Origin: a virus
Taxonomy: Duplodnaviria > Heunggongvirae > Uroviricota > Caudoviricetes
Virus record (IMG/VR): IMGVR_UViG_2526164596_000013
DNA: 50,979 bases
Direction: 5' to 3' (one strand)
A model generated the notes under the pieces. The model searched no databases and was not told the origin of the DNA. It saw only the letters and a program-made list of their open reading frames with translations. The position numbers and the translations under genes are program-made. The first letter of the stretch is position 1; each line of letters starts with the position of its first letter. This document shows positions 4,101-45,553 of the stretch, piece by piece.

Positions 4101-4223
4101 TGCCAGCGTGTTCACCACCACCGTGGTACTGTTACGTTTTGCTTTCAGCTGGATTGTGCAGTTCTGTACCGGTTTTCCTGTGCCGTCTTTCAGTACACCT
4201 GAAATTTTTACTGCCATATTCAC
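1194..4223 (-). CDS. stf: side tail fibre protein Stf (lambda-like, expanded Ala/Ser/Thr-rich repeat region)
   Basis: 1009-aa ORF; N-terminus [26 protein letters not shown] and C-terminus ...[38 protein letters not shown] match lambda Stf as recalled; overlaps tfa start. Confidence 0.85.
2627..2820 (-). repeat. tandem direct duplication (132-bp period) inside stf
   Basis: near-identical 62-bp cores at 2627-2688 and 2759-2820 (ttggcgttgccgccagcgtttcagacgt[g/a]ctgttggtcgc...), encoding KGI[VI][23 protein letters not shown] twice. Confidence 0.6.
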
Positions 4224-4948: not shown

Positions 4949-7900
4949 TCAGCTGATACTGATGCCTGCGGTGGCTTTCTTCATCACCACAACCAGCAAA
5001 TCGCTGATACTTGCTGTGGGATACCAGTTATTCACCAGCCATGCTGACACCGAAAACTCCAGTGTCATGTGACCGTGACCGGCAGGCATATCAATAACAC
5101 CACTGTAAATCAGCGTATTATCCAGCGCGGTACGGTTATAAATTTCAGCACCGTTTTTCCGCACTATCAGACGGCATGAGGAGTAAATATCAGTATGCTC
5201 TTTCTCATGTTTAGCGCCGCTGAATGCCACCGCCGGAATAACAATCTGCCGGTCAAACGGCTGATCGTCATAAACCCTGACGGTAATGGTCCCTGATGGC
5301 CACCGCTCCGGTGCACGGGAGTCCCGGGGGAAAGCTTTGCCCACTGTTTTAACGAGATCGCCTTCAATCTGGTTGGCGGACAGTTTTCCCAGAACCCGAC
5401 AGTTTTCGTTAATCGTGACGTTGTTGAGCGTCCCGGAGTTCGCATTCACGTTACCGCTGATATCGGCATTTTTCGCCGTCAGCCGCCCGTCCGGTGTCAG
5501 GGAAAATGCCGGAGGATTACCGCCGCTGGTAATGGTGGGAGCCGTCAGGTATTTCAGGAACACTTCGTTCATGAATATCTGATCGCCCTGACCAACAAAC
5601 ATCGGCTTTGTGTTGCCATTCGCAGGATTAATCATCGCAATCCGGTCAGCAGCCAGAAGCACCTGACTCTGCATACCTGCTGGCGTATTCTCAATACCGG
5701 CTCCGATACCCGCAATATAAAGGCGTCCGTCCTTCATCTGCTGCAGTTTCACGGCCCACATGCTGTTCAGGTTATTATTTGTATCAACCTGAACTTTCTG
5801 TATCTGCTGGATTGCCGCGCTCTGATTTTCCAGTTTTTTATTGACGGTCTGCGTGATTTCATTGCTGACATTCGTAATGGACGTCCTGATTTCAGCCAGA
5901 TCAGGCGCAAGCTGACCGTTATCAATCTGTGTCCACAACTCCTGAGCCAGATGGGTTTTCCCTATCTCTCCTTTGAAAAAATCCAGATAGCCGGATGCAT
6001 CATCACTCGGCTGGCCAACAGCCTCCACAAATGCCGATTTGCCAACAGTATTCACACTGCGGATATAAAAATAATAATCATGGCCCGGTTTGATATTGAT
6101 ACTGGCAGCTATCCAGTACAGCGCCGAGCCAAGATAGCGGGCTGCGGTTTCAACCTGCCTGATATCCGCAATCCGCTTTTCCGAGAACCAGAACTCAAAC
6201 TGTACCGTCGGGTCATAAACGGCAAGATGCGGCGTGGCGGTTATCTGAAAATAGCCCGGCGTCAGCTCAATCCGCGACGGTGCTGCCGGTGCGGCAATCC
6301 GGAAGGTGGTGGTGGCAGGTTCACCCTGCTGGCCATAGCTGTTTATCGCCCGCACCGTCAGGGTGTATTCCCCGAGCGGCAGGCCGCTGAAACGGTGCTC
6401 CGTGTCTGCGGTGATGGCGGTGGTCACCAGTCTGGCATCCGTTCCCTTACCACTGGTCAGGCGCAGACTGAAGCGCACACCCTTCACCACCCGCGGCGTG
6501 TCCCATTTCGCCTGCGCCAGATACTGGCCGTCAGCTGCGCTCACCTCCACCGTCAGGTGCTGCACTGCCGGTGGGATGACGCTGTTCAGGGAACCTGACT
6601 GCGGCTCAAAGCGGGCACCGTTATCCACGATGGCTTCTTTTTCCGGTACGTGCTGCACCGCCGTGATGGCAAAGGTGCCGTCCGTGTTTTCCCGGATGGA
6701 GACACAGCGGAACAGGCGACGGCGCAGTGACGGCAGGGAGAGTCCCCACACCCCGTATGTCTCCACACCATCAGGCAGGGTACTGACCTGTATCCGGTCC
6801 GGCGCGGGGTGTTCGGTGATGTCCACACTCACCGGCTTACCGCTGCCGTTAATCAGGTTCACCGTGGCGGCACCGGTCTCCGGAAGTGTCACTTCACGGT
6901 CCAGCGTCAGGGTGCGGGTGGCAGCATCAATGGACAGGACACGTCCGCCGGTCAGAGTCCCGGCATAGTCGTTATCACAGATTTCAATGATGTCACCGGG
7001 TGTGTGCCGCAGCCCCTGAGACCCGAGCGTGAAATCCACCGTCTGCGTTTCCAGCAGTTCAGTCTTTATCACCCACAGTCCGGCACGGTGGGCCTGACCG
7101 CGGCTGGTACAGCCGAACGCGTCCATCTTCAGCAGGTTGCGTCCGTAGCGCAGTATGGCTTCCGGGTCTTCCACCAGTTCCGTGGAGGTCTGCCAGCCGT
7201 TCTGCGGGTCGGTGTAATTCACCTCCACCGCCGTGTGCCGGTCCTTCAGGGCACTGAAGCTGTAGCGGAATCCCACGCCGTTATCATCCACCACCACATC
7301 GCTGTTGGTGTACGGCCACACCACATCCGACGGGCGGTCCTGAACGAACGTCAGCGTCTGACCGTTCCATACCGGCATACAGCGCATCGCAGAGCAGAAA
7401 TCACTGAGAACGTCCCACGCCTTACGCTGTTGTGCCAGGTACGCATTAAAGGTCATCCGCGGCTCTGTCCCCCCGAAACCATCCGGGACCGTCTGGTCGC
7501 AGTACTGCCCGATGGCATACAGCGCCCACTTGTCCACATCCGCCGCCCCCAGACGTTTTCCCATGCCGTAGCGCGGGTGAGTCAGCATGTCCCACAGGCA
7601 CCAGGCCGGGTTGTTGCTGTATGCCGGTTTCAGACTGCCGTCCCAGATACCACTGTACGTGCGTTTTTCCGGGTCATAGTTTGACGGCACCTGGATGATG
7701 CGACCGCGGATATGGTAGTTCACCGTCATCTGCTGGCCGCCGAACTGCTCCGCATCCACCTGCAGCCCCACAATGGCCGTGTTCGGGTAGCACTGTTTCA
7801 CATCGATGATTTCGGTGTATGACGACCACAGCGTCTTATTCTGCAGCTGGTCCGTGGTGCTGTCCGCCGTCTCCCTGACCATCCGGATGTTAAAGGGCCG

Positions 7901-30445: not shown

Positions 30446-30892
30446 GAATCCTCCCGGCCGGGATAATATTGTGAGTAAAATGAGGAGCGGGCTGAAGTCC
30501 GGAAGTTACAGGACAATGGCAGAAGAGAGACAATAGCCCGCAATACGAAAAAGGCCGCGCTATTGCGCAGAGTGATTACTGTCGGATATTATTCGCCAGC
30601 TGAAATATTACTTCACGTTTTGTTGTTTATTCCTTGCCGCCCGCGTCTCCCTGCGCGGGATTTTTTTGTCCATAAGAAAGCCCCTCCGGAGAGGGCTGGA
30701 GAGTGGCGCTATGTGCCATTGCATGGTGCCGGGTGCCTCCCGGTGAATTCAGTACCAGCACCTGAATCCGCGATTATCCCATATACCTACTCGCTGATTG
30801 CCCCTCCGCACAGGGGGATTCACCATGCCAGTTTCTTTTAACAAACTCCCCGCAAAACAGACAACTGTCAACCGTCTGAATTGTGAGACATT

Positions 30893-30920
30893 TAAAAAAA
30901 AGGCCCGCAAAAGCGAGCCA
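30893..30920 (-). terminator. rho-independent terminator immediately 3' of tRNA-Arg(UCU)
   Basis: minus strand hairpin ggctcgc-tttt-gcgggcc followed by TTTTTTTT. Confidence 0.5.
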
Positions 30921-30933
30921 GGGAAAATAAGTG

Positions 30934-31010
30934 TGGCGCGTTGTACTGGATTCGAACCAGTGACCGATTGCTTAGAAGGCAATTGCTCTGTCCGGCTGAG
31001 CTAACAACGC
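30934..31010 (-). tRNA. argO: tRNA-Arg (anticodon UCU)
   Basis: rc gives GCGTTGTTAGCTCAGCCGGACAGAGCAATTGCCTTCTAAGCAATCGGTCACTGGTTCGAATCCAGTACAACGCGCCA; cloverleaf with 7-bp acceptor, anticodon loop CTTCTAA, encoded CCA. Confidence 0.85.
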
Positions 31011-31023
31011 AGGGTACAGATAA

Positions 31024-31100
31024 TGGACCGCCATCGAGGACTCGAACCCCGCGCAACCAGCTTCGAAGGCTGGCGCTCTATCCTGATGAGCTAATGGCGG
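31024..31100 (-). tRNA. argN: tRNA-Arg (anticodon UCG)
   Basis: rc gives CCGCCATTAGCTCATCAGGATAGAGCGCCAGCCTTCGAAGCTGGTTGCGCGGGGTTCGAGTCCTCGATGGCGGTCCA; anticodon loop CTTCGAA; acceptor stem CCGCCAT/ATGGCGG; encoded CCA. Confidence 0.75.
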
Positions 31101-31107
31101 TATGTGA

Positions 31108-31179
31108 TGGTGGCCCTTGCTGGATTTGAACCAGCGACCTGGCGATTATGAGTCGCTCTCACCACTGAGCTAAAGGGCC
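31108..31179 (-). tRNA. ileZ: tRNA-like gene with CAU anticodon (Ile2/Met-type), atypically short
   Basis: rc gives GGCCCTTTAGCTCAGTGGTGAGAGCGACTCATAATCGCCAGGTCGCTGGTTCAAATCCAGCAAGGGCCACCA (72 nt); good acceptor and T arms, loop CTCATAA, but the anticodon stem 5' side appears about 4 nt short. Confidence 0.55.
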
Positions 31180-33676: not shown

Positions 33677-34696
33677 TCAGGACAGCACACCAATCGCCAG
33701 CGCGCGATCGATAAAACGAAATATCAGCTCCAGTTGGGAACCATACTTCTCTTCAAATGCCACGGTATCCGCATGTAGTTCGTCATGGTGTTTTCTGCAC
33801 AAAGGCAACACAAAAAGGTCATGCGCTTTTGTACCCATTCCACCCTGACCATGACCAATCAGGTGATGAGGATCGTCGGCTGGCTTACCACAACATGCAC
33901 ACGGCTGCGTCTTAACCCAGCGCGTGTACTTTTCATTAACCCAGCGACGACGTTTTGGGCGTAACATAAAAGACTCCGGCGACTCCGGATCCACTTTCAG
34001 CGCCAGCACCTTTTTCGCTTTATCCTGGATGATGCTGGTGGCAGGAACCGAAGGCACAAGGTCACTTTCCCGGGTGACAGACGGCACAACAGGCTTCGGT
34101 AATCTCAGTGCCTTACGGGCTGCACTTTCCGGTAAGGCATCCGCCAGGTCATTACGAATCAGCCACCAGCACAGTTCCGGCATTGTCACAACGTGACTGT
34201 CATCAAAACCGAGATCCCGACGCACAACAGACAACACCCAGCGGGCACAGTTATCCGTTGCCATTGATTCCAGCCGTTCCGTGAACTGATCGCGCAGCTG
34301 GTTATCGCAGTGCCAGCACAGACGGATTGCACCCGGAGCGTGTCGCATTGTGGTCATGTTCTCGCTGTGCCTGTCGGAATGAGGCCACTGGCAGCCTTTT
34401 TCACGAAGTAACCAGCTTTCAAGACATTCCACGCCACCAGCACGACGGATCACTGCCTCATTGCGGAACACGGCCCGAACGGCAGGATCATCCGCCAGCG
34501 GTTGTGATGCCGCCGGAACGGCACCACTGGCGAAAGATGAATAACGTTCCGGCTCAGGCTCCAGCAGGACACGCCCCTGCATAAACAGGGGCATCAGCTC
34601 TGAACCGGGCCTGAACAATACAATCCCCATACGCGGGGCAATTTCAGGGGTCAGCAGTGCTCTCACGGTCACCTCAGCAAACGATATTGAATGCAT
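33677..34696 (-). CDS. DUF968-like phage protein with C-terminal Cys/His-rich (HNH-like) motif
   Basis: 339-aa ORF; C-terminus [43 protein letters not shown]; sits in the nin-equivalent position between replication genes and Q; start codon uncertain. Confidence 0.55.
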
Positions 34697-34717
34697 ACAG
34701 AGAAAAAAACTCAGTCA

Positions 34718-34921
34718 TCACGCAGTAAACTCCTTCACCAGTATTTCAAACTGGCTTACCTGTCCTTCCAGTTCCTCCACGCAATCCACCAGCTCATCCA
34801 CCGCCTTTTGTGTACGGTGTTTTGCCTGCAGCAGATCACGAAGCGCCGGAGTAAGCTGCTTGCGGAGCGTATCTTTTGCCACGCTCGTTTTTTCCATCTG
34901 TTCAGCACAACGAAGCATCTC
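34718..34921 (-). CDS. hypothetical small coiled-coil protein
   Basis: ORF 34718-34975 (TTG at 34975 overlapping dnaB stop; first ATG at 34921); fills gap between helicase and DUF968 genes. Confidence 0.35.
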   Translation of the reverse strand, partial: EMLRCAEQMEKTSVAKDTLRKQLTPALRDLLQAKHRTQKAVDELVDCVEELEGQVSQFEILVKEFTA

Positions 34922-34971
34922 CTGCGCCTGCCGACGAAGTTGTTCCGGTGAAACAGTGGTTGTTCTGTTGT

Positions 34972-36372
34972 TCAAAATAAACGCTCCGTTTTACTGCCCG
35001 ACATGCGGTTATTGCTGTATCTGCGCGGATTGCCCGGCGTCATGGGTGTGGAAAGAACCCGGGCACTCTCCTGGTCCACAGGCAGAAAATGTCCGTTATG
35101 AAAACGCCGGTAAATGGTCCCGAGCGTGCCATTACGCTGTTTCGTGATGTTGATTTCTGCTATGCCTCTGGCCTGAGTTTCCGGGTTGTATACCTCATCC
35201 CTGTAAAGCATCAGAATGATGTCGGCATCCGCCTCGATTTCCCCGGAGTTTTTCAGGTCCGAGTTCATTGGGCGTTTATTGGGTCTGGATTCCACGCCGC
35301 GGGAGAGCTGGCTCAGAGCAATCAGCGGAAAACCGCCGGATTTTGCCAGGCTTTTAAGTCCCTTTGAGATTTCCCCCACCGCAAGGTCGTGACGCCCCGT
35401 GCTGCGGGTTTTAATCAGGCCGAGGTAATCGACCACCACCAGCGCCGTTTCCGGGTGTTTCATCCGGTGGTGCTTCGTGGTTGCACATATCTCATCAATG
35501 GTCAGGTTTGCCTGGTCCACCATCCAGATATTACGCCCCGTCATTCGTCCCACGCCCTGCGAGAAACGCGCCCAGTCTTCATCTTCAAAACGGGCAACAG
35601 ACTTAAGACGGGATACCGGCATTCCACCGGCAGCAGACACCATACGTTCACCAATCTGGATGTTCGCCATCTCCATGGTGAACAGAAGCACGCCATGCCC
35701 CTGCTCAGTCACCTTGTCGATGATGTCCAGCGCAAGTTCGGTTTTCCCCATCGAAGGACGGGCGGCAATGAATACCAGGTCTCCGGGCTCCATACCGCCC
35801 GTTTTTGCGTCCAGTTCATCAATACCGGTCATCAGCGCCCTGGATTTCTCCAGTCCCTGATTGCGGCATTCAACACGGTCGACCACTTCCGGAAGGACAT
35901 CATCAATGTGAACCGGCTGAATGACGCCCTTTCCGGTCGACAGTGAGGCCATCATGTTCTGCGCATCCTTCAGGGCATCCTCGGCTGCTTCACAGGTATA
36001 CGCATCACGTAAATTCTGTAATGCTTCAGTCAGTGTTTTTTCTGCATCGCGCAGTGCGGCATTGCGCCGTAACGCTGCGACATAGTGCTCCAGTGAAGAC
36101 TTCACCCAGGTTTTGCGTCCGGTGTCGGTAATCACCGGGGCAAGTTCCGGCATCTCATTGCACAGCAGTACGGGGTCAATGACGCCGGATATGCGAGCCT
36201 GTCTGCAAATCCCCGCGTAAATATCCCGGTACTGACGCACAAAAAATACATCCGCCGGAAGTGTGGCCAGAATATCCATCACTTCCGGATCGGCCCCACG
36301 CAGAAAAAACGCACCGATGACAGCGCCTTCCAGGTCATCGTTACGCCATGCCGGGGTGTTCTGGCTGGTCAT
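34972..36372 (-). CDS. replicative DNA helicase (DnaB family)
   Basis: 466-aa ORF; Walker A GARPSMGKTELAL, DnaB-like C-terminal RecA fold motifs (IALSQLSRGVESR..., EIEADADIILMLYRDEVYN). Confidence 0.85.
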   Translation of the reverse strand: MTSQNTPAWRNDDLEGAVIGAFFLRGADPEVMDILATLPADVFFVRQYRDIYAGICRQARISGVIDPVLLCNEMPELAPVITDTGRKTWVKSSLEHYVAALRRNAALRDAEKTLTEALQNLRDAYTCEAAEDALKDAQNMMASLSTGKGVIQPVHIDDVLPEVVDRVECRNQGLEKSRALMTGIDELDAKTGGMEPGDLVFIAARPSMGKTELALDIIDKVTEQGHGVLLFTMEMANIQIGERMVSAAGGMPVSRLKSVARFEDEDWARFSQGVGRMTGRNIWMVDQANLTIDEICATTKHHRMKHPETALVVVDYLGLIKTRSTGRHDLAVGEISKGLKSLAKSGGFPLIALSQLSRGVESRPNKRPMNSDLKNSGEIEADADIILMLYRDEVYNPETQARGIAEINITKQRNGTLGTIYRRFHNGHFLPVDQESARVLSTPMTPGNPRRYSNNRMSGSKTERLF

Positions 36373-38617: not shown

Positions 38618-39468
38618 GGGCGAACCTCCTTGTCAGAACCATTCAGCCTGGAATCAACAAGTGCAGCGCCAAAAACAGCATCACCAACACGGTCGTACAG
38701 TTTGCTAGCCAGCGGAGATTCAACGGCCTTAAGCATTGGATAAAGCTGGCTTGTCCAGATTTGATGGATTTCACGCAAATGCAGGTATACGCCTCTGGCG
38801 TTTCGTGCGACAGCTGACATATCAACCGCGTCAGCACCAGATAAATTCTTCTCCATCTGGTTAAAGGCGTTGATGTATGCCTCTTTGAACTGGGCAGCAC
38901 GTTTACCAGTGAAGCCCATGGCAAGAAACGCAAAACCGTCGCGGGTGATTTGGTAACAAGGGAGTTTGCGGCCTGATGCGTCGGTGTATTCACTTAACAC
39001 AAAATTGTGTTCAGTAAATTCAGCGGAACATTCGAGGTTTCTAATTCTATCTAAAACCCGCTCATGCCGTTTAGTAAAGTAATTAGCTACTGCAAGAGAT
39101 GTGGTGACAACGCGACCATTGATAATCGTGATTTCAGGGCGAGATTGGGTTGGGAGAGTAGTCATGGTGACAGCCCCTATGTTGAATTCAATGAACTCAC
39201 CACCAAGGCTTTCCACGACCATATAGGTGGTGAGACGTACAGGGGTGGAAATACCGGTCAACATAGAACCCGGCCCAACCGAAGTTGGCCCTGCACGCCC
39301 CACCATAATTTGGGCGTAACGATGCTCATGACACGAAAAAACCGCATGAGCGCGGTTGTGCTCTATATTGAATTTCGGGTTTCCACGCCCGGCACCCGCT
39401 TTATAAGGTGCAGAGACAGTGTAACGTCCCGAAATTGCAGAATCAATATTTGGTCTTGAAATGATCAT
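38614..39468 (-). CDS. phage regulatory protein, Rha-family domain in C-terminal half
   Basis: segment VVTTSLAVANYFTKRHERVLDRIRNLE...FVLSEYTDASGRKLPCYQITRDGFAFLAMGFTGKRAAQFKEAYINAF resembles the Rha phage-regulator domain as recalled; N-terminal 110 aa unassigned. Confidence 0.5.
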   Translation of the reverse strand: MIISRPNIDSAISGRYTVSAPYKAGAGRGNPKFNIEHNRAHAVFSCHEHRYAQIMVGRAGPTSVGPGSMLTGISTPVRLTTYMVVESLGGEFIEFNIGAVTMTTLPTQSRPEITIINGRVVTTSLAVANYFTKRHERVLDRIRNLECSAEFTEHNFVLSEYTDASGRKLPCYQITRDGFAFLAMGFTGKRAAQFKEAYINAFNQMEKNLSGADAVDMSAVARNARGVYLHLREIHQIWTSQLYPMLKAVESPLASKLYDRVGDAVFGAALVDSRLNGSDKEVRP

Positions 39469-40403: not shown

Positions 40404-40697
40404 ATGAAAGTTCAGGCCGTTGGTTTATTCTGGTTTCGCGATGCGATTCAGTATCATGAGCTCAAAAATATTTTTACTGATGCTGATGTGCTCTCCGACA
40501 GTTACACCGAGTGGAAACACGACGCTGAAAAATTGATTAAGCGTGTCGAAAGAGGCGGGCAACGAGTTATTAAAGTTGAAGCGGATACAGCCGAGTTCAT
40601 CACCTGGTGTACAAGCGAAGGCATTGGAATCAATGCCGAAGGTAGAATGCAGTTCGCATCCTTTAAGGCTTACCAACAACTTCTCAGCGAACGCTAA
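40404..40697 (+). CDS. hypothetical protein (97 aa) between the cro-like gene and the Rha-like gene, opposite strand
   Basis: strong SD AAGGAGG 7 nt before ATG 40404; G-rich first codon positions; fully overlapped by an antisense ORF (40425-40757), so strand assignment is not certain. Confidence 0.45.
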   Translation: MKVQAVGLFWFRDAIQYHELKNIFTDADVLSDSYTEWKHDAEKLIKRVERGGQRVIKVEADTAEFITWCTSEGIGINAEGRMQFASFKAYQQLLSER

Positions 40698-40767
40698 TGT
40701 GATCGGGGCAATCGAAATGGTTGTCCCATCGTATTTAATAGTTATTTTTTCGCTCATATCACCACCA

Positions 40768-40977
40768 TCACTTCCCATCTTCCGTGTGCGCTAGGCTTGG
40801 GTGTGTATATGGAATGCTCGGATCCAAATGACAAAGAATGGCAACATCCTCCGGAACACCTCGCGTTTTCCACTTTCCAACACCTTGACTGCCACGAGGC
40901 CTTCCTTTCTTTGGGAACCTGCGACCAATAGCGGCATTGGTTTTAAATTGAATTTTTAATATTTCATAAAGGGTCAT
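40768..40977 (-). CDS. cro: Cro-like regulator (DicC/YdaS-type HTH)
   Basis: 69-aa ORF divergent from cI across a 111-bp operator region; FKTNAAIG...VGKWKTRGVPEDVAIL resembles the YdaS/DicC Cro-like family as recalled; no obvious SD. Confidence 0.5.
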   Translation of the reverse strand: MTLYEILKIQFKTNAAIGRRFPKKGRPRGSQGVGKWKTRGVPEDVAILCHLDPSIPYTHPSLAHTEDGK

Positions 40978-41088: not shown

Positions 41089-41745
41089 ATGAAGTCTTTA
41101 GGTGAACGTCTCATCAACGCACGGCAAAAAGCTGGGTTAACACAAGATGCGTTGGCTAAAAAAGCTGGGATCACCAGAGTTGCAATCAGTAAAGCCGAGC
41201 AAGGCCTTACAAAAAGTTTCAACGGTGACACCCTTTTTAAAGTTGCAGCTGCACTGCGGTGTTCACCGCAGTGGCTTCAGAACGGAGATGAAAAAGATAA
41301 GCATTGGGAAAATAATGTTAAGAGCTGCCCACAGAGAGACACAGCACACTCTTACCCTGTAATTAACTGGGTTCAGGCAGGATTATTCGCAACTTCTGGT
41401 GATGACTACAACATGTATGATCAGGATAATTGGAGGCATTCTGTAAAATACGCTGGTGAGAGGGGGTTCTGGCTGGAAGTGCACGGAGACTCAATGACTT
41501 CGCCCGTAGGAATAACATTTCCTGAAGGAATGTCGATCCTTGTCAACCCAGATAAAGAAGTTTTTTCAGGGTGTTACGTCATCGCCAGAAAAAAATCCAC
41601 CAATGAAGCAACATTCAAAAAATATATTTCTGACATGGGAAAGGCGTTTCTAAAGCCCCTTAATCCACAATATCCAATCATAGAAATGGACAATGATTGC
41701 GAAATAGTAGGTGTTGTGGTTGATGCCAGGTGGGATATTTTCTGA
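41089..41745 (+). CDS. cI: prophage repressor cI (N-terminal HTH, C-terminal S24 LexA-like autopeptidase)
   Basis: ATG 41089 with GGAGAAG SD; HTH LTQDALAKKAGITRVAISKAEQG; C-terminal GDSM Ser and downstream Lys (ATFKK) of S24 peptidases. Confidence 0.85.
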   Translation: MKSLGERLINARQKAGLTQDALAKKAGITRVAISKAEQGLTKSFNGDTLFKVAAALRCSPQWLQNGDEKDKHWENNVKSCPQRDTAHSYPVINWVQAGLFATSGDDYNMYDQDNWRHSVKYAGERGFWLEVHGDSMTSPVGITFPEGMSILVNPDKEVFSGCYVIARKKSTNEATFKKYISDMGKAFLKPLNPQYPIIEMDNDCEIVGVVVDARWDIF

Positions 41746-41747
41746 CC

Positions 41748-41850
41748 AGACACAAAACACAAAACACAAAAAGAAACCAAAGTATCAAAAATCACTTGCC
41801 ACACCTTGATACCTTAGTTACCATAAAACAAAGTTCGTAACTGAGGTATC
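41748..41850. promoter_or_regulatory. OL/pL-like operator region downstream of cI
   Basis: (CACAAAA)x3 at 41751-41773 followed by repeats of the same half-site as OR: CAAAGTATC (41778-41786), TTGATACCTT (41807-41816), GAGGTATC (41843-41850). Confidence 0.45.
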
Positions 41851-41855
41851 ATCTC

Positions 41856-42272
41856 ATGATCAATAAAGCTACAACTCTTGACTGTCTCGAAGAACTGAAA
41901 AACCTCGGCAGCCTCATTACACTAATAGCAAAAGCAACACCTGATGCTACGCTCTCTAGCGATATAGAGTCATGCGCAGGGCTGGCATGGGATATGACAA
42001 ATAGCATATCCAGAAAGCTATCGTCAGCAATGCTTTTACAGAATAAAAATTCTGCAATCAACAACCGTCTTCGCACCCAACGCGAAGCCTGCGGCTTAAC
42101 AACCGCCGAACTCGCCAGGCTGCTCGATCTCGATGAAGAAATTATCATCCAGTGGGAGAGCGGAGAGTATGAACCAACTATCAGTATGCTTATCCCACTG
42201 GCAAATATTCTTGGCTGCGATCCGATGTGGCTGTTAACTGGTAAACCAACAGGTGGGGATACTTGCGCATGA
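41856..42272 (+). CDS. hypothetical protein with C-terminal XRE-family helix-turn-helix
   Basis: 138-aa ORF; C-terminal LRTQREACGLTTAELARLLDLDEEIIIQWESGEYEPTISMLIPLANILGCDPMWLL is a Cro/C1-type HTH; first gene after the OL-like operators. Confidence 0.55.
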   Translation: MINKATTLDCLEELKNLGSLITLIAKATPDATLSSDIESCAGLAWDMTNSISRKLSSAMLLQNKNSAINNRLRTQREACGLTTAELARLLDLDEEIIIQWESGEYEPTISMLIPLANILGCDPMWLLTGKPTGGDTCA

Positions 42273-42511
42273 AAAACTGTGATGCTTACCATATTTGTCT
42301 CATTGGTGAATTGCTTGATTTCATACAAAAAAGCACTGCGCGCAATAATAAAAATATAACATATGGTGATCTGGTAATAATTTCAGAGGATATAAAGAGC
42401 ATCGCTCTTAAATTCAAGAGCGACGCGAGTATTGATGACGCTATTTACGCTTATCTTGCGAAAATAATTGACGGATCCAAAATCCAGCCTCTGGATGAAC
42501 CTCGTCAGTGA
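42269..42511 (+). CDS. hypothetical protein (80 aa), ATGA-coupled to the HTH gene
   Basis: ATG 42269 overlaps stop of 41856-42272; GGTGGGGA upstream. Confidence 0.45.
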   Translation: MKNCDAYHICLIGELLDFIQKSTARNNKNITYGDLVIISEDIKSIALKFKSDASIDDAIYAYLAKIIDGSKIQPLDEPRQ

Positions 42512-42668
42512 AAAACTCCTTTGATGAAGATGAGAACTGCTTCATAAACTTTACTTTATCTTCAGGTGAAACTACCTGACGAATTAATGCGGAGATAGCA
42601 ACTTTGTGCCAAATTAATTCTTTTTTGAGTTCTGAAATCTCTTTTTCGAGTTGCTCTGCGTTAATCAT
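42441..42668 (-). CDS. hypothetical coiled-coil protein (75 aa), convergent with the early-left operon
   Basis: ATG 42668 preceded by GGAGGA at 5-nt spacing; 3' end overlaps 42269-42511 on the other strand. Confidence 0.45.
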   Translation of the reverse strand: MINAEQLEKEISELKKELIWHKVAISALIRQVVSPEDKVKFMKQFSSSSKEFFTDEVHPEAGFWIRQLFSQDKRK

Positions 42669-42847
42669 TTATCCTCCATTGAGAGCTGAATTGAAAATGG
42701 GGACCAACACGCGGCTACGTGTGGTCGTGCGCCGGACACGGATAAGCATCCGGTAACTGATTATCAATCATTGCGGAAACAGTCTCAATATGAAAACACT
42801 TCTGAGACTCGCTATATAGCAGGACATATAAGTCAGCTGAGGAAGCC

Positions 42848-43213
42848 ATGAAAAAGTTCGAAAACATAACTGTTCTCCATGTTGATGACTTTGATTATAC
42901 AAACCCGGAACTTCTCCCGGAGGTTGTAAAGGCAATAGATGTTGCCGATATAGTGATTAGAGAAAAGAGAATTGTCAAAAACAGGCTCGCATGCACTTCA
43001 GGAGCAATGACAGAAACAACCTCACAGCAAGATAATTACGAAGGCATTTGTCTGGAGCCTGATTCATTTGCGGTAAATGTTTATCATTTATTGCATGCAA
43101 CACAGGTATTACATATGTCCAGTAATCACGAAACGAAAACACTCGGCAGCGAAATTCTGAGTTTTGCATGTGAGTATACAAAAGCTGCTGCCGAAAAAGA
43201 ATTAGCGCAATAA
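42848..43213 (+). CDS. hypothetical acidic protein (121 aa)
   Basis: ATG 42848 preceded by GAGGAAG SD. Confidence 0.45.
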   Translation: MKKFENITVLHVDDFDYTNPELLPEVVKAIDVADIVIREKRIVKNRLACTSGAMTETTSQQDNYEGICLEPDSFAVNVYHLLHATQVLHMSSNHETKTLGSEILSFACEYTKAAAEKELAQ

Positions 43214-43407
43214 CAACAAATATGCCCTGAACGTTTATTGCGGTTTTATCGCCGGGGATTGTTACAACCTTAATCCACAGGAGGCTTTATTGTGACTTTT
43301 ATAAAGAATATGGCATCACACAAGACCGCCTGCCTTATTGCACAATACGGTGAAAATTACATGCATATTGCCTGCTTATTTCTGCGTAAAGCATACGGGA
43401 GATAATA

Positions 43408-43620
43408 ATGCATCAGAAAACAGCAGAACACGAACAAACCAGAGTATTGCTGACCATCAAAAACGGGAAAGTAATATTCATTCGCCATGTTCATGACGAT
43501 GAACTTGTAGGAACTCTTTCAACATTCCTGTTTATTGCAGAAAGGGCAGGATATGACGTTATTGCACCAGCAGATGAAGATGAAGATGAAGATGAAGATG
43601 AAGATGAAGATGAGGAATAA
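43408..43620 (+). CDS. hypothetical protein with poly(Glu-Asp) C-terminal tail
   Basis: ATG 43408 with GGGAG SD; ends ...APADEDEDEDEDEDEDEE encoded by a hexanucleotide repeat. Confidence 0.5.
   Translation: MHQKTAEHEQTRVLLTIKNGKVIFIRHVHDDELVGTLSTFLFIAERAGYDVIAPADEDEDEDEDEDEDEE
43573..43614 (+). repeat. hexanucleotide microsatellite (GATGAA)6+GATGAG
   Basis: seven tandem 6-bp units at the 3' end of ORF 43408-43620. Confidence 0.9.
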
Positions 43621-43856
43621 ATATCATGCAATACGATGAATTCCAGGCTGAAGCAACAGCCAATGGTATACGAACTGGCAGTATGACGATTGATTATCAC
43701 GACGCCATACGTCGTCTGGATGCCGGAGAATTCGATACTCCTAATGTGCGAGGTTTACGTATCCTTCAGTGTCTGGCGCAAGCCGACGAAGCAGGATTAC
43801 TGGGTAAACTTCCGGTTGAGATGAAGGTTGCTCAGTGGCGATGGTTGGATTTGCCC

Positions 43857-44762
43857 CTATATTTCCAGACATCTGTTATCACTTAACCCATTACAAGCCC
43901 GCTGCCGCAGATATTCCCGTGGCGAGCGATAACCCAGCGCACTATGCGGATGCCATTCGTTATAATGCTCGAACGCCTCTGCAAGGTTCTTTGCTGCCGT
44001 TAACCCGTCTGGTTTGGGCATGATACTGATGTAGTCACGCTTTATCGTTTTCACGAAGCTCTCTGCTATTCCGTTACTCTCCGGACTCCGCACCGCCGTG
44101 TTCTTCGGTTCAAGTCCCAACATCCGGGCGAACTGGCGTGTTTCATTAGCCCGGTAGCATGAACCATTATCCGTCAGCCACTCCACTGGAGACGACGGAA
44201 GATCGTTGCCGAAGCGGCGTTCCACCGCTCCCAGCATGACGTCCTGTACTGTTTCACTGTTGAAGCCGCCGGTAGTCACCGCCCAGTGCAGTGCCTCACG
44301 ATCACAGCAGTCCAGCGCGAACGTGACACGCAGTCTCTCTCCGTTATCACAGCAGAACTCGAACCCGTCAGAGCACCATCGCTGATTGCTTTCTTTCACG
44401 GCCACTCTGCCTGTATGTGCCCGTTTCGATGGCGGTACAGCAGGTTTTCGCTCAAGCAACAGCGCATTCTGGCGCATGATCCGGTAAACACGTTTGGCAT
44501 TGATCGCAGGCATACCATCAAGTTCTGCCTGTCTGCGAAGCAGCGCCCATACCCGACGATAACCATACGTGGGCAGCTCTCCGATAACATGGTGTATACG
44601 GAGAAGCACATCCGTATCATCAGTGTGACGACTGCGGCGGCTATCCATCCAGTCATCGGTTCGTCTGAGAATGACGTGCAACTGCGCACGCGACACCCGG
44701 AGACAACGGCTGACTAAGCTTACTCCCCATCCCCGGGCAATAAGGGCGCGTGCGCTATCCAC
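43857..44762 (-). CDS. insD: IS2 transposase OrfB (DDE integrase core)
   Basis: 301-aa ORF matching IS2 InsD as recalled. Confidence 0.85.
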
Positions 44763-45085
44763 TTTTTTGCCCGTCCATATTCAACGGCTTCTTTGAGGAG
44801 TTCATTTTCCATCGTTTTCTTGCCGAGCAGGCGCTGGAGTTCTTTAATCTGCTTCATGGCGGCAACAAGTTCAGAGGCAGGAACAACCTGTTCTCCGGCG
44901 GCGACAGCGGTAAGACTTCCTTCCTGGTATTGCTTACGCCAGAGAAATAACTGGCTGGCTGCTACACCATGTTGCCGGGCAACGAGAGAGACCGTCATCC
45001 CCGGTTCAAAGCTCTGCTGAACAATTGCGATCTTTTCCTGTGTGGTACGCCGTCTGCGTTTCTCCGGCCCTAAGACATCAATCAT
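44720..45085 (-). CDS. insC: IS2 OrfA (HTH transposase subunit)
   Basis: [56 protein letters not shown]... matches IS2 InsC as recalled; overlaps orfB as expected for a -1 frameshift fusion. Confidence 0.85.
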
Positions 45086-45553
45086 CTGTTCTCCAATGAC
45101 TAGTCTAAAAACTAGTATTAAGACTATCACTTATTTAAGTGATACTGGTTGTCTGGAGATTCAGGGGGCCAGTCTAATGGTTGTATGTGACGACATTCAT
45201 CAACGAAGAAGAAGACAAGAACGGCACAATTGATATCTTGAATGAACACGGAACAACTGAACACGCCGTGGTATATAACGGGATGTATGGGTTTATGACG
45301 ATATATCCCGGCCCCATTCGATTTGCCTTACAACAGTATATTGAATGGAATTTAATTCAAAAATACGGCGAAGCTGAAGGAATGGGAAGAGCGCTGTTTC
45401 TTTATCAGAAAATGCTCACTACTTCCCCTGATAAAGGTTTCATTCTTTCAGATATGGGTCGAGAAGGGCTTGAAATCCTTCTGGATGAAATTATTAACGA
45501 AATGAATACTCATGGCATGCAATCCGAAACAGATATTAAGTAAAAGGGACCAC

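What the first reader, a model, noticed from the sequence alone, without database searches (positions are those of the whole stretch)
41856..42668. HTH protein, coupled small ORF and convergent strong-RBS gene immediately downstream of cI
The first pL-proximal genes are not N-like. Instead there is a 138-aa protein with an unassigned N-terminal domain and a C-terminal XRE HTH, an ATGA-coupled 80-aa ORF, and a convergent 75-aa coiled-coil gene with a near-ideal SD whose 3' end overlaps the 80-aa gene. The cI-proximal position in lambdoid prophages is where exclusion and abortive-infection functions (rexAB, sieB-type) sit. This is a candidate toxin/antitoxin or superinfection-exclusion module.
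Basis: partly seen in the sequence, partly recalled or inferred. Interest (0 to 1): 0.55.

Follow-up and report, generated by a model that had tools for sequence, protein, structure and literature searches.

The report
Swappable antisense gene cassette beside prophage repressor
The three genes next to this E. coli prophage's repressor are real but are not one toxin-antitoxin unit. The 75-aa gene is one of many interchangeable payloads behind a conserved, structured RNA leader, unannotated in every record read here, that a fifth of complete E. coli genomes carry in the slot where phage lambda keeps its exclusion gene sieB.

Summary
There is a 138-aa protein with a C-terminal XRE HTH (41856-42272), an ATGA-coupled 80-aa ORF (42269-42511), and a convergent 75-aa gene (42441-42668, minus strand) with SD GGAGGA and a 71-nt 3' overlap. 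All lie just downstream of a LexA-type cI and three OL-like operators.

The single-module reading is not supported. The HTH belongs to a prophage-restricted family that usually has two HTH domains, and it mostly occurs without the small ORFs. A related prophage couples the HTH directly to the 121-aa gene. Here a low-GC 579-bp block, flanked by 9-bp repeats, sits between them.

Both small ORFs are orphans but look coding (omega about 0.2, each only in its own frame). No toxin, defence or structural match was found.

The 75-aa gene is driven by an ~86-nt 5' leader (42669-42754) found in 1110 of 5426 complete E. coli genomes and in Edwardsiella and Pluralibacter. The leader has two hairpins and an anti-SD helix supported by covariation. 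It joins at least seven different upstream (promoter) sequences at one predicted +1 and about 20 payload types at the ATG. It has no Rfam family.

The slot and orientation match sieB in lambda and Rac. The most likely reading is a prophage-expressed accessory gene. Its function is unproven.

The parts
41089..41745 (+). cI-type repressor (LexA/S24 family)
   Evidence: Pfam Peptidase_S24 at 78.8 bits plus HTH_3 at 54 bits. PGAP names it 'LexA family protein'.
41773..41850 (.). OL-like operator cluster (41773-86, 41808-21, 41837-50) with a pL-like promoter (TTGCCA 41796-41801, 17-nt spacer, TACCAT 41819-41824)
   Evidence: The operator motif has 4 exact hits in the window against 0.05 expected, all next to cI. 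Repeats are shared with the cI-cro intergenic region. The promoter scan scores 9/12. The third operator covers the SD (GAGG) of the HTH gene.
41856..42272 (+). 138-aa early protein: an N-terminal helical domain (residues 1-70) plus one XRE/HTH_3 domain. It looks like a one-HTH derivative of a tandem-HTH family.
   Evidence: Pfam HTH_3 and phrog_4739. The closest solved domains are P22 C2 and 434 repressor/Cro. The family has 156 listed proteins; the named ones are E. coli, one Salmonella and one Stx2a phage record, and the most frequent length classes are 215-232 aa with two HTH domains. P0100 (218 aa) ends with a near-identical tail, GKPTAGDTCA versus GKPTGGDTCA here. The protein is acidic (pI 4.5), and its presumed recognition helix reads DEEIIIQWESG (sequence).
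42268..42276 (+). Left copy of the 9-bp direct repeat CATGAAAAA that bounds the inserted block
   Evidence: Alignment with L131, where the HTH stop is ATGA-coupled directly to the 121-aa gene.
42269..42511 (+). 80-aa ORF (o80). Its first three codons are borrowed from the 121-aa gene start. It is translationally coupled to the HTH gene and lies in the pL sense.
   Evidence: The ORF is intact in the lineage that is about 9% diverged. Omega is 0.20 (7 synonymous, 6 non-synonymous) in its own frame only. It is an orphan: only 5 near-identical clusters in 5.8 billion proteins. phrog_23054. AlphaFold gives three helices at pLDDT 69, with no fold match. PGAP does not call it.
42399..42426 (-). Terminator-like hairpin 15 nt downstream of the o75 stop codon (12-bp stem followed by TCTTTATATC)
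   Evidence: Terminator scan and inverted repeat I13. The T tail is weak and the lineage that is about 9% diverged carries one mismatch, so this is a prediction only.
42441..42668 (-). 75-aa gene (o75), the payload of the antisense cassette
   Evidence: Omega is 0.21 in its own frame; one antisense frame that shares its third codon positions scores 0.18, as expected for such a frame. It is an orphan with 6 clusters, mostly E. coli and one Citrobacter member. phrog_20080. It is soluble with pI 8.0. AlphaFold gives an N-terminal long helix, with no fold match. GC is 37%, against 46% for the HTH gene.
42669..42754 (-). Conserved structured 5' leader. Hairpin 1 is 42732-42753, hairpin 2 is 42702-42726, the anti-SD is 42696-42701, and the SD GGAGGA is 42672-42677.
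   Evidence: It is found in 1110 of 5426 E. coli genomes and in more than 150 IMG/VR contigs, plus Edwardsiella and Pluralibacter genomes. On the covariance-model alignment, 97% of cells are paired, 6 pairs show compensatory changes, and 0 of 500 shuffles reach the observed values. Invariant G-U pairs in hairpin 1 mean the fold forms only on this strand. No Rfam family matches.
42760..42788 (-). Promoter-like site for o75: TTGAGA (42788-42783), 17-nt spacer, GATAAT (42765-42760). Predicted +1 is near 42754.
   Evidence: It is the joint best match in the promoter scan (10/12, tied with a plus-strand site at 43007-43036). Homology with other leader copies starts right after the -10 hexamer. At least seven unrelated upstream (promoter) sequences in other loci meet the leader at the same point.
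42847..42855 (+). Right copy of the 9-bp repeat CATGAAAAA, at the start of the 121-aa gene
42848..43213 (+). 121-aa pL gene. In L131 it directly follows the HTH gene. Its C-terminal domain is a free-standing copy of the N-terminal domain found in other HTH variants.
   Evidence: L131 gene order. It is 43% identical to the N-terminal domain of the L013-type HTH protein, E 6e-10. phrog_5451.

Best explanation
The region combines two things with separate histories.

1. The first gene of the cI-repressed leftward (pL) operon is an XRE-type HTH protein, not an N antiterminator. It belongs to a prophage-restricted family built from an exchangeable N-terminal helical domain and usually two HTH domains. 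The copy here has lost one HTH. It would be made early after induction or infection. Its target is unknown.

2. A low-GC 579-bp mosaic block lies between this gene and the 121-aa gene that follows it directly in a related prophage. The block carries the 80-aa ORF in the pL sense. That ORF took over the ATGA-coupled start of the displaced 121-aa gene. The block also carries the 75-aa gene on the opposite strand, with its own promoter, an ~86-nt structured leader, a strong SD and a terminator-like hairpin.

The leader is the conserved unit of a widespread cassette system. The same transcribed leader is joined at its predicted +1 to different promoters and at the ATG to many unrelated small soluble proteins. 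It always lies antisense in the early-left operon, in the slot and orientation that sieB occupies in lambda and Rac.

Inferred mechanism:
- In the lysogen pL is shut, so the antisense promoter can fire.
- The 5'-terminal hairpins stabilise the mRNA, and the anti-SD/SD helix sets or gates translation of the payload.
- After induction, convergent pL transcription across the cassette silences the payload while o80 is made.

The payload is therefore most likely a prophage-expressed accessory (moron) protein. Its role could be exclusion of other phages or modulation of the host. Which of these applies is not shown.

Shown: the anatomy, the insertion junctions, the coding signal, the conservation of the leader, its covariation and its strand. 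Inferred: promoter activity, timing of expression and biological role.
For: - Operators and pL.
- The HTH family and its variants occur without the cassette.
- Insertion junction with the 9-bp repeat.
- Low GC of the block.
- Coding signal for both small ORFs.
- Leader distribution.
- Payload and promoter swapping at fixed junctions.
- Another payload (69 aa, E. coli O157) is under purifying selection, omega 0.27.
- RNA structure, covariation and strand-specific G-U pairs.
- Promoter and terminator predictions.
- sieB lies in the same slot and orientation in lambda and Rac.
Against: - There are no expression data. The promoter (10/12 match) and the terminator (weak T tail, one mismatch in the lineage that is about 9% diverged) are predictions.
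- The -10 hexamer here is a hybrid formed at a recombination junction, so it could be fortuitous.
- The coding signal rests on one diverged lineage (13-15 substitutions per ORF; P = 0.003-0.005, or 0.05-0.06 if a 30% synonymous fraction is assumed).
- The covariation was counted on an alignment fitted to the model, and most of it comes from hairpin 2 in a few distant sequences.
- Many copies of payloads are frameshifted, including o75 in phage phiP27, so selection on them may be weak.
- No payload has a demonstrated function. None matched a defence model when tested (o75 and o80 only).
- The HTH recognition helix is acidic, so even DNA binding is uncertain.
Confidence: 0.55

Rival explanations
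1. o75 and o80 are a functional pair. o75 would be an exclusion or abortive-infection effector made in the lysogen. o80 would be its cognate antidote, made from pL so that the phage escapes its own system. This would resemble P22 SieB/Esc, or a convergently arranged toxin-antitoxin pair.
For: The two ORFs are always inherited together, in 16 of 16 IMG/VR loci and about 54 genomes. Their 3' ends overlap by 71 nt, and both show purifying selection. Several other payload types are also linked one-to-one to a payload-specific variable C-terminal part of the preceding pL gene, often with tail-to-tail overlap. In phiP27 o75 is frameshifted while o80 is intact, which is tolerable if o75 is the effector. 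P22 sieB is controlled by an antisense RNA (PMC7067206).
Against: The linkage is also what physical proximity between two recombination anchors would produce. The GhoS-like payload has no such partner. No homology to any toxin, antitoxin or defence protein was found. No interaction or toxicity data exist.
Confidence: 0.2
2. The HTH protein and o80 form a classical type II toxin-antitoxin pair, with an XRE antitoxin and a downstream ATGA-coupled toxin.
For: The genes are co-directional with a 4-nt overlap. The XRE HTH gives weak below-threshold matches to antitoxin models (HipB-like, MqsA-like). The HTH protein is acidic.
Against: The ATGA junction predates o80, because in L131 it couples the HTH to the 121-aa gene. 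Most HTH homologues have no o80. o80 occurs with two unrelated N-terminal domains, so no o80-specific neutralising domain co-varies with it. o80 matches no toxin family or fold. The operon lies behind cI operators and so would be off in the lysogen, which is the opposite of an addiction module.
Confidence: 0.05
3. The leader is conserved only as a recombination linker between phage modules. It has no RNA function, and o75 and o80 are neutral passengers.
For: Module boundaries fall exactly at the ends of the leader. Many payload copies are decayed. This prophage also carries an IS2 in the same operon.
Against: Compensatory changes keep hairpin 2 paired in sequences whose stems are otherwise unrelated, as in Edwardsiella and Pluralibacter. 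The anti-SD/SD pairing and hairpin 1 persist across genera. Promoters differ but meet the leader at the same base. The payloads show omega of 0.2-0.27.
Confidence: 0.15
4. The conserved element acts on the pL (plus) strand, for example as a processing or antitermination signal in the long early transcript upstream of dicF.
For: In Qin-type prophages it lies in the 'long untranslated region' between ydfC and dicF (PMC5069750).
Against: This window has no DicF downstream. The invariant G-U pairs of hairpin 1 become A-C mismatches on the plus strand. The plus-strand fold is no better than shuffled sequence (z = -1.4, against -2.5 for the minus strand). The element ends exactly at the SD-ATG of minus-strand genes. 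The boxA-like CGCTCTTAA match is at chance level.
Confidence: 0.05

Closest known systems
sieB superinfection-exclusion genes of lambda, P22 and Rac
   Same: The slot and orientation are the same. A self-promoted gene lies antisense in the early-left operon and tail-to-tail with the first pL gene or genes. Lambda sieB (34482-35036, +) abuts N. Rac sieB overlaps ydaF by 4 nt. Regulation by antisense RNA is documented for P22 sieB (PMC7067206).
   Different: There is no sequence or family similarity. o75 is a 75-aa soluble protein, whereas lambda sieB encodes about 184 aa and I recall SieB as a membrane protein. The region upstream of Rac sieB has no similarity to the leader. No exclusion phenotype is known for o75.
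Morons (independently transcribed accessory genes of lambdoid prophages, in the sense of Hendrix and colleagues)
   Same: The block is inserted between two genes that are adjacent in a related phage. It has its own promoter-like and terminator-like signals, a lower GC content, and an opposite orientation to the surrounding operon.
   Different: Here the expression unit itself (the transcribed leader plus SD) is a conserved, structured and reusable platform. It is shared by about 20 payload types and at least seven upstream (promoter) sequences. I do not know this to be a described property of morons.
[quoted passage not shown]
   Same: A fixed position between conserved anchors holds highly variable cargo that is exchanged by recombination (PMC9122126, abstract).
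   Different: The cargo here consists of single very small proteins (30-112 aa) with no recognisable defence domains. The right-hand anchor is an RNA leader rather than a gene.
SinR/SinI-type regulator and antagonist pairs
   Same: A free-standing small protein (the C-terminal domain of the 121-aa ORF) is 43% identical to the non-HTH domain of some variants of the neighbouring HTH regulator. Free-standing copies of the N-terminal domain found here also exist (P0221, P0222).
   Different: This is a resemblance in architecture only. The domain lies N-terminal to the HTH, there is no sequence relation to SinR or SinI, and in this window the HTH carries the other domain type.
P22 C2 and 434 repressor/Cro DNA-binding domains
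   Same: These are the best solved matches to residues 68-130 of the HTH protein (E about 1e-5).
   Different: The protein has an extra N-terminal domain and no S24 peptidase. It is acidic overall and has an acidic recognition helix. It lies downstream of the operators rather than controlling them, as far as can be seen.

Membership tests
XRE / HTH_3 transcription-factor superfamily (138-aa protein) | Match to the HTH_3 profile above Pfam's gathering score | tested here: met
   PF01381 at 43.8 bits against a cut-off of 23, residues 72-126. P22 C2 and 434 domains are the best solved matches.
Lambda N-type antiterminator | A small basic arginine-rich protein as the first pL gene, with nut (boxA/boxB) sites downstream of pL | tested here: not met
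   The first pL gene is an acidic HTH protein with pI 4.5. No N-like gene is annotated in the operon. The only boxA-like match is at chance level.
Type II toxin-antitoxin (HTH + o80) | The downstream gene belongs to a toxin family, or the pair is recognised by TA or defence models | tested here: not met
   o80 has no hit above threshold in Pfam, NCBIfam or PADLOC and no fold match.
Type II toxin-antitoxin (HTH + o80) | The two genes are inherited as a unit, and the neutralising domain co-varies with the toxin | tested here: not met
   The HTH occurs without o80 in most loci. o80 occurs with two unrelated N-terminal domains. The ATGA junction predates o80.
Type II toxin-antitoxin (HTH + o80) | The toxin arrests growth and the antitoxin neutralises it | not testable with these tools
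   This needs expression experiments.
SieB family | Sequence or profile similarity to SieB, and a membrane protein of roughly 190 aa | tested here: not met
   o75 has no Pfam or PHROG match to SieB. It is 75 aa and its highest 19-residue hydropathy is 0.77, so it has no membrane segment.
SieB-type slot (position only) | A self-promoted gene antisense in the pL operon, tail-to-tail with the pL-proximal gene or genes | tested here: met
   The layout in the window matches lambda and Rac.
Moron | Inserted between genes that are adjacent in related phages | tested here: met
   In L131 the HTH is ATGA-coupled to the 121-aa gene. In the window a 579-bp block lies between them, flanked by CATGAAAAA repeats.
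Moron | Own promoter and terminator | tested here: inconclusive
   Consensus matches only: the promoter scores 10/12, and there is a 12-bp hairpin with a weak T tail.
Moron | Expressed from the repressed prophage | not testable with these tools
   This needs RNA or protein data from a lysogen.
Any Rfam RNA family (leader) | Covariance-model match | tested here: not met
   No match at the gathering threshold in the window, and none with E <= 5 in 41700-43300 apart from two chance-level hits elsewhere.
GhoS / DUF2622 (one alternative payload, not o75) | Pfam PF11080 match | tested here: inconclusive
   The 94-aa payload scores 21.2 bits against a cut-off of 21. NCBI names it GhoS. It has no bearing on o75.

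The most novel reading that the evidence does not exclude
The leader is a new class of cis-regulatory 5' UTR. On this reading it defines a hypervariable cassette system in the sieB slot of enterobacterial lambdoid prophages. It would gate translation of interchangeable small effector proteins in response to a signal such as temperature, phage infection or a trans-acting RNA or protein. Each payload would be paired with a cognate pL-encoded partner (here o80) that gives the prophage self-immunity. That would amount to a large unexplored reservoir of miniature exclusion or host-control systems.
Probability: 0.2. Interest if true: 0.8.

Novelty: new variant of a known kind. Interest (0 to 1): 0.55.

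Why it matters
The leader-plus-payload unit is present in about 20% of complete E. coli genomes, often in two copies, including O157:H7 and Stx prophages. The leader is unannotated in the records read here, and I found no description of it in the searchable literature or in Rfam.

It gives a precise handle: one conserved RNA of about 90 nt locates a family of swappable small prophage genes. These genes sit where lambda, P22 and Rac keep an exclusion gene, and probably differ in expression between lysogeny and lytic growth.

If the payloads prove to be exclusion, anti-defence or host-modulating factors, the leader would be a simple way to find them. The leader itself would be a compact natural module for mRNA stability and translation control.

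For this particular window, the result also removes a tempting but unsupported toxin-antitoxin annotation.

Tried and rejected
- Toxin, antitoxin or defence homology: Pfam, PHROGs, NCBIfam and PADLOC gave only generic HTH hits for the 138-aa protein, and nothing above threshold for o80 or o75.
- Distant homologues: searches of 5.8 billion proteins found only near-identical relatives of o80 and o75. A full HMMER scan with the N-terminal domain of the HTH protein gave 8 hits.
- Structure: the AlphaFold models are helical with moderate confidence (pLDDT 67-69). Foldseek against the PDB gave nothing with E below 5. Both prediction jobs went to the small ORFs, so the HTH protein was not modelled.
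- nut, boxA or put-like antitermination signals: the single boxA-like match is at chance level. A boxB-like hairpin in the common promoter type is absent from this window.
- Plus-strand function of the leader: rejected on G-U pairs and fold statistics.
- Known sRNA: no Rfam hit.
- Literature: full-text searches for the leader sequence and for the N-termini of the proteins returned nothing. A phiP27 search was uninformative. The DicF operon paper does not mention an antisense unit.
- Paralogues of any of the domains elsewhere in the window: none.
- The degenerate genome-wide pattern scan mostly returned chance hits in GC-rich genomes. Only the enterobacterial hits were genuine.
Full report
**Context.** The window is a lambdoid prophage of E. 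coli. It is identical across the region to a prophage in strain O111:H21 15A, integrated next to yecN/cmoA, and is about 94-98% identical in this region to Stx2e phage phiP27. The plus strand of the window runs in the direction of the leftward (pL) operon. The gene order is: cro-like gene (40768-40977, minus), cI (41089-41745), the finding, then further early-left genes, an IS2, ea22-like genes, xis and int.

**Observation.**
- The 138-aa ORF (41856-42272) has a C-terminal HTH_3 domain (43.8 bits, residues 72-126). Its first 70 residues have no Pfam match.
- Its stop codon overlaps the ATG of an 80-aa ORF (42269-42511).
- A 75-aa ORF lies on the other strand (42441-42668). It is preceded by GGAGGA and overlaps the 80-aa ORF by 71 nt.
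- Between cI and the HTH gene there are three copies of a 14-bp pseudo-palindrome that also occurs in the cI-cro intergenic region. The motif GWWAYYNWRGTATC has 4 exact hits in 51 kb against 0.05 expected, all next to cI. The motif was derived from these sites, so the enrichment is partly circular.
- The three copies bracket a promoter-like site, TTGCCA-17-TACCAT. The HTH gene is therefore the first gene behind a cI-controlled pL.
- No N-like gene exists in the operon.

**The HTH protein.**
- It belongs to a family of 156 listed proteins; the sources that name them give E. coli, one Salmonella and one Stx2a phage record. The most frequent length classes are 215-232 aa: an N-terminal helical domain followed by two HTH domains.
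- P0100 (218 aa) ends with a near-identical tail to the protein here (GKPTAGDTCA versus GKPTGGDTCA). The 138-aa form therefore looks like a derivative that lost one HTH repeat. Variants of 167 and 215 aa differ only after residue 130.
- The same HTH domain (99% identical) is fused in other prophages to an unrelated N-terminal domain. That other domain is 43% identical to the C-terminal domain of the 121-aa ORF at 42848-43213.
- Free-standing copies of the N-terminal domain found here also exist.
- The HTH is closest to the DNA-binding domains of P22 C2 and 434 repressor/Cro. However, the protein is acidic (pI 4.5) and its presumed recognition helix reads DEEIIIQWESG. DNA binding is therefore plausible but not assured.
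- I could not assign it a target.

**The small ORFs are an insertion.**
- In locus L131 the tandem-HTH gene is ATGA-coupled directly to the 121-aa gene.
- Aligning the junctions shows that the window matches L131 up to GCGCATGAAAAA, then diverges, and resumes at CCATGAAAAAGTTCG. A 579-bp block flanked by the 9-bp repeat CATGAAAAA (42268-76 and 42847-55) therefore separates the two genes.
- The 80-aa ORF uses the start codon and coupling that formerly belonged to the 121-aa gene.
- The block has 36-37% GC in its coding parts, against 46% for the HTH gene.
- The whole block occurs in only about 54 of 5426 complete E. coli genomes. It occurs in two lineages that are about 9% apart.

**Are the small ORFs genes?**
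- Between the two lineages, the part of o80 outside the overlap has 7 synonymous and 6 non-synonymous changes (omega 0.20). No other frame scores below 0.6.
- The part of o75 outside the overlap has 8 synonymous and 7 non-synonymous changes (omega 0.21). One antisense frame that shares its third codon positions scores 0.18, as expected for such a frame, and no other frame is below 2.
- Binomial P is 0.005 for o80 and 0.003 for o75. If 30% of random changes are assumed synonymous, P rises to 0.06 and 0.05.
- Both ORFs are intact in the diverged lineage represented by L013, except that o75 is frameshifted in phiP27 itself.
- Both are orphans, with 5 and 6 near-identical clusters among 5.8 billion proteins.
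- AlphaFold gives small helical proteins (pLDDT 69 and 67) with no significant PDB fold match.
- No toxin, antitoxin or defence model matches. Neither protein has a membrane segment.

**The conserved leader.**
- The 575-bp query 42273-42847 matched 1110 of 5426 genomes. Most of those matches cover only about 90 nt, at 42668-42760, where nothing is annotated. This is the 5' untranslated region of o75.
- In E. coli O157:H7 the same sequence precedes an unrelated 69-aa gene. It lies antisense between the ydfA/ydfB-like genes and dicF/dicB.
- Two scans of viral contigs and one of species-representative genomes recovered more than 150 copies.
- The leader is joined exactly at the ATG to about 20 payload types of 30-112 aa, a few of which are distant homologues of one another. 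Two of them are GhoS/DUF2622-like.
- The leader is joined to at least seven unrelated upstream (promoter) sequences just after the -10 hexamer. The predicted +1 therefore always falls one to three bases before the first hairpin.
- In this window that upstream sequence is TTGAGA-17-GATAAT (42788-42760), the joint best match in the scan at 10/12.
- The 69-aa payload shows omega 0.27 in its own frame only.

**Structure of the leader.**
- The leader folds into a 5'-terminal hairpin and a second hairpin. A third helix pairs CUCCAUU with AAUGGAG and so covers part of the SD.
- I built a covariance model and aligned 30 copies, including Edwardsiella and Pluralibacter copies whose second stems have different sequences.
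- On that alignment 97% of cells are paired. Six pairs show changes on both sides, and no shuffle out of 500 reaches the observed values. Shifted registers give only 27-48% pairing.
- The alignment was fitted to the model, which favours the structure. The compensatory stems in distant genera are nevertheless visible in the raw sequences.
- Two invariant G-U pairs in hairpin 1 would be A-C mismatches on the other strand. The plus-strand fold is no better than shuffled sequence. The RNA therefore acts on the o75 strand.
- Rfam has no matching family. Full-text searches for the sequence found nothing.

**Position.**
- In lambda, sieB (34482-35036, plus strand) lies antisense in the pL operon and abuts N.
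- In K-12 Rac, sieB lies antisense and overlaps ydaF by 4 nt.
- K-12 Qin retains the promoter and first hairpin of the leader, antisense between ydfC and dicF. The DicF literature calls that stretch a long untranslated region (PMC5069750).
- The cassette therefore occupies the classical sieB slot. It has no sequence relation to sieB or to the region upstream of Rac sieB.

**Interpretation.**
- The finding is not a three-gene module. I read it as an early XRE-type protein followed by an inserted block. The block holds a pL-sense orphan gene (o80) and an antisense, self-promoted accessory gene (o75) carried on a reusable RNA leader.
- By position and orientation, o75 should be expressed when pL is repressed and be silenced by convergent transcription after induction. 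This step is inferred.
- Each payload type is linked to a payload-specific variable C-terminal part of the preceding pL gene, or to o80 in this window. The two often overlap tail-to-tail.
- That linkage leaves open a model in which the payload is an effector and the pL-sense partner is its self-immunity factor. Linkage between two recombination anchors explains the pattern equally well.
- An HTH/o80 type II toxin-antitoxin pair is disfavoured by the junction history, by the domain swapping and by the position behind cI operators.

**Verdict.** The notable result is the conserved structured leader with exchangeable payloads and promoters, unannotated in the records read here. It is a new variant of the moron theme.

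Noticed in passing
window 39223-39411 (minus strand): Rfam finds a C4 antisense RNA (39223-39310, 82 bits) and isrK (39335-39411, 62 bits) in tandem. They lie inside or just upstream of Rha/antirepressor-type genes of the rightward operon. This suggests a P1/P7-like c4-ant (immI-type) second immunity layer in a lambdoid prophage. The annotated Rha gene start overlaps these RNAs.
   Followed up: no
window 40404-40697 (plus strand), with a hairpin at 40705-40727: A 97-aa gene lies antisense in the rightward operon between the cro-like gene and the Rha gene. It has a strong SD (AGGAGG) and a terminator-like hairpin just after its stop codon. It is 30% identical over its full length (E 2e-21) to a 104-aa payload carried by the conserved leader in Pluralibacter-type phages. 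The immunity region is thus flanked by antisense accessory genes on both sides.
   Followed up: partly
window 42848-43213; locus L013: The C-terminal domain of the 121-aa ORF is 43% identical to the N-terminal domain of the 153- and 230-aa HTH variants found in other prophages. This is a free-standing copy of a regulator's non-DNA-binding domain encoded next to the regulator, a SinR/SinI-like arrangement. PGAP calls only the last 68 codons (43007-43213).
   Followed up: partly
window 43408-43620: A 70-aa ORF ends in a run of alternating Asp/Glu residues (EDEDEDEDEDEDEE) encoded by a GAAGAT repeat. It weakly matches the C-terminal parts of PHROG anti-repressor families. The repeat is shorter in related phages.
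   Followed up: no
window about 43857-45130, with 43626-43886 and 45181-45543: An IS2 (insC/insD-like ORFs on the minus strand) splits an early-left gene that is intact in related phages at about 190 aa. The leftward operon of this prophage is therefore disrupted.
   Followed up: partly
locus L126 (K-12 Qin) 4103-4188, minus strand: E. coli K-12 keeps the promoter region and first hairpin of the leader, without a payload. It points antisense into ydfC, in the spacer upstream of dicF. E. albertii, Shigella and other E. coli strains carry similar remnants.
   Followed up: partly
locus L002 (phage phiP27), about 6190-6420: In the phiP27 reference sequence the 75-aa gene is frameshifted to 35 aa, and the record annotates only a downstream fragment (L09). 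The 80-aa ORF is intact but not annotated.
   Followed up: partly
window 41746-41775: A C/A-rich, G-poor tract (ACACAAAACACAAAACACAAAAAG) directly follows the cI stop codon and precedes the first OL operator. There is no intrinsic terminator between cI and the HTH gene, so read-through from the cI promoter or Rho-dependent termination are both possible.
   Followed up: no
window 30668-31179 and 654-851: Rfam also reports STnc100 (30668-30857), three tRNA genes (30937-31179) and IS009 (654-851) elsewhere in the prophage.
   Followed up: no
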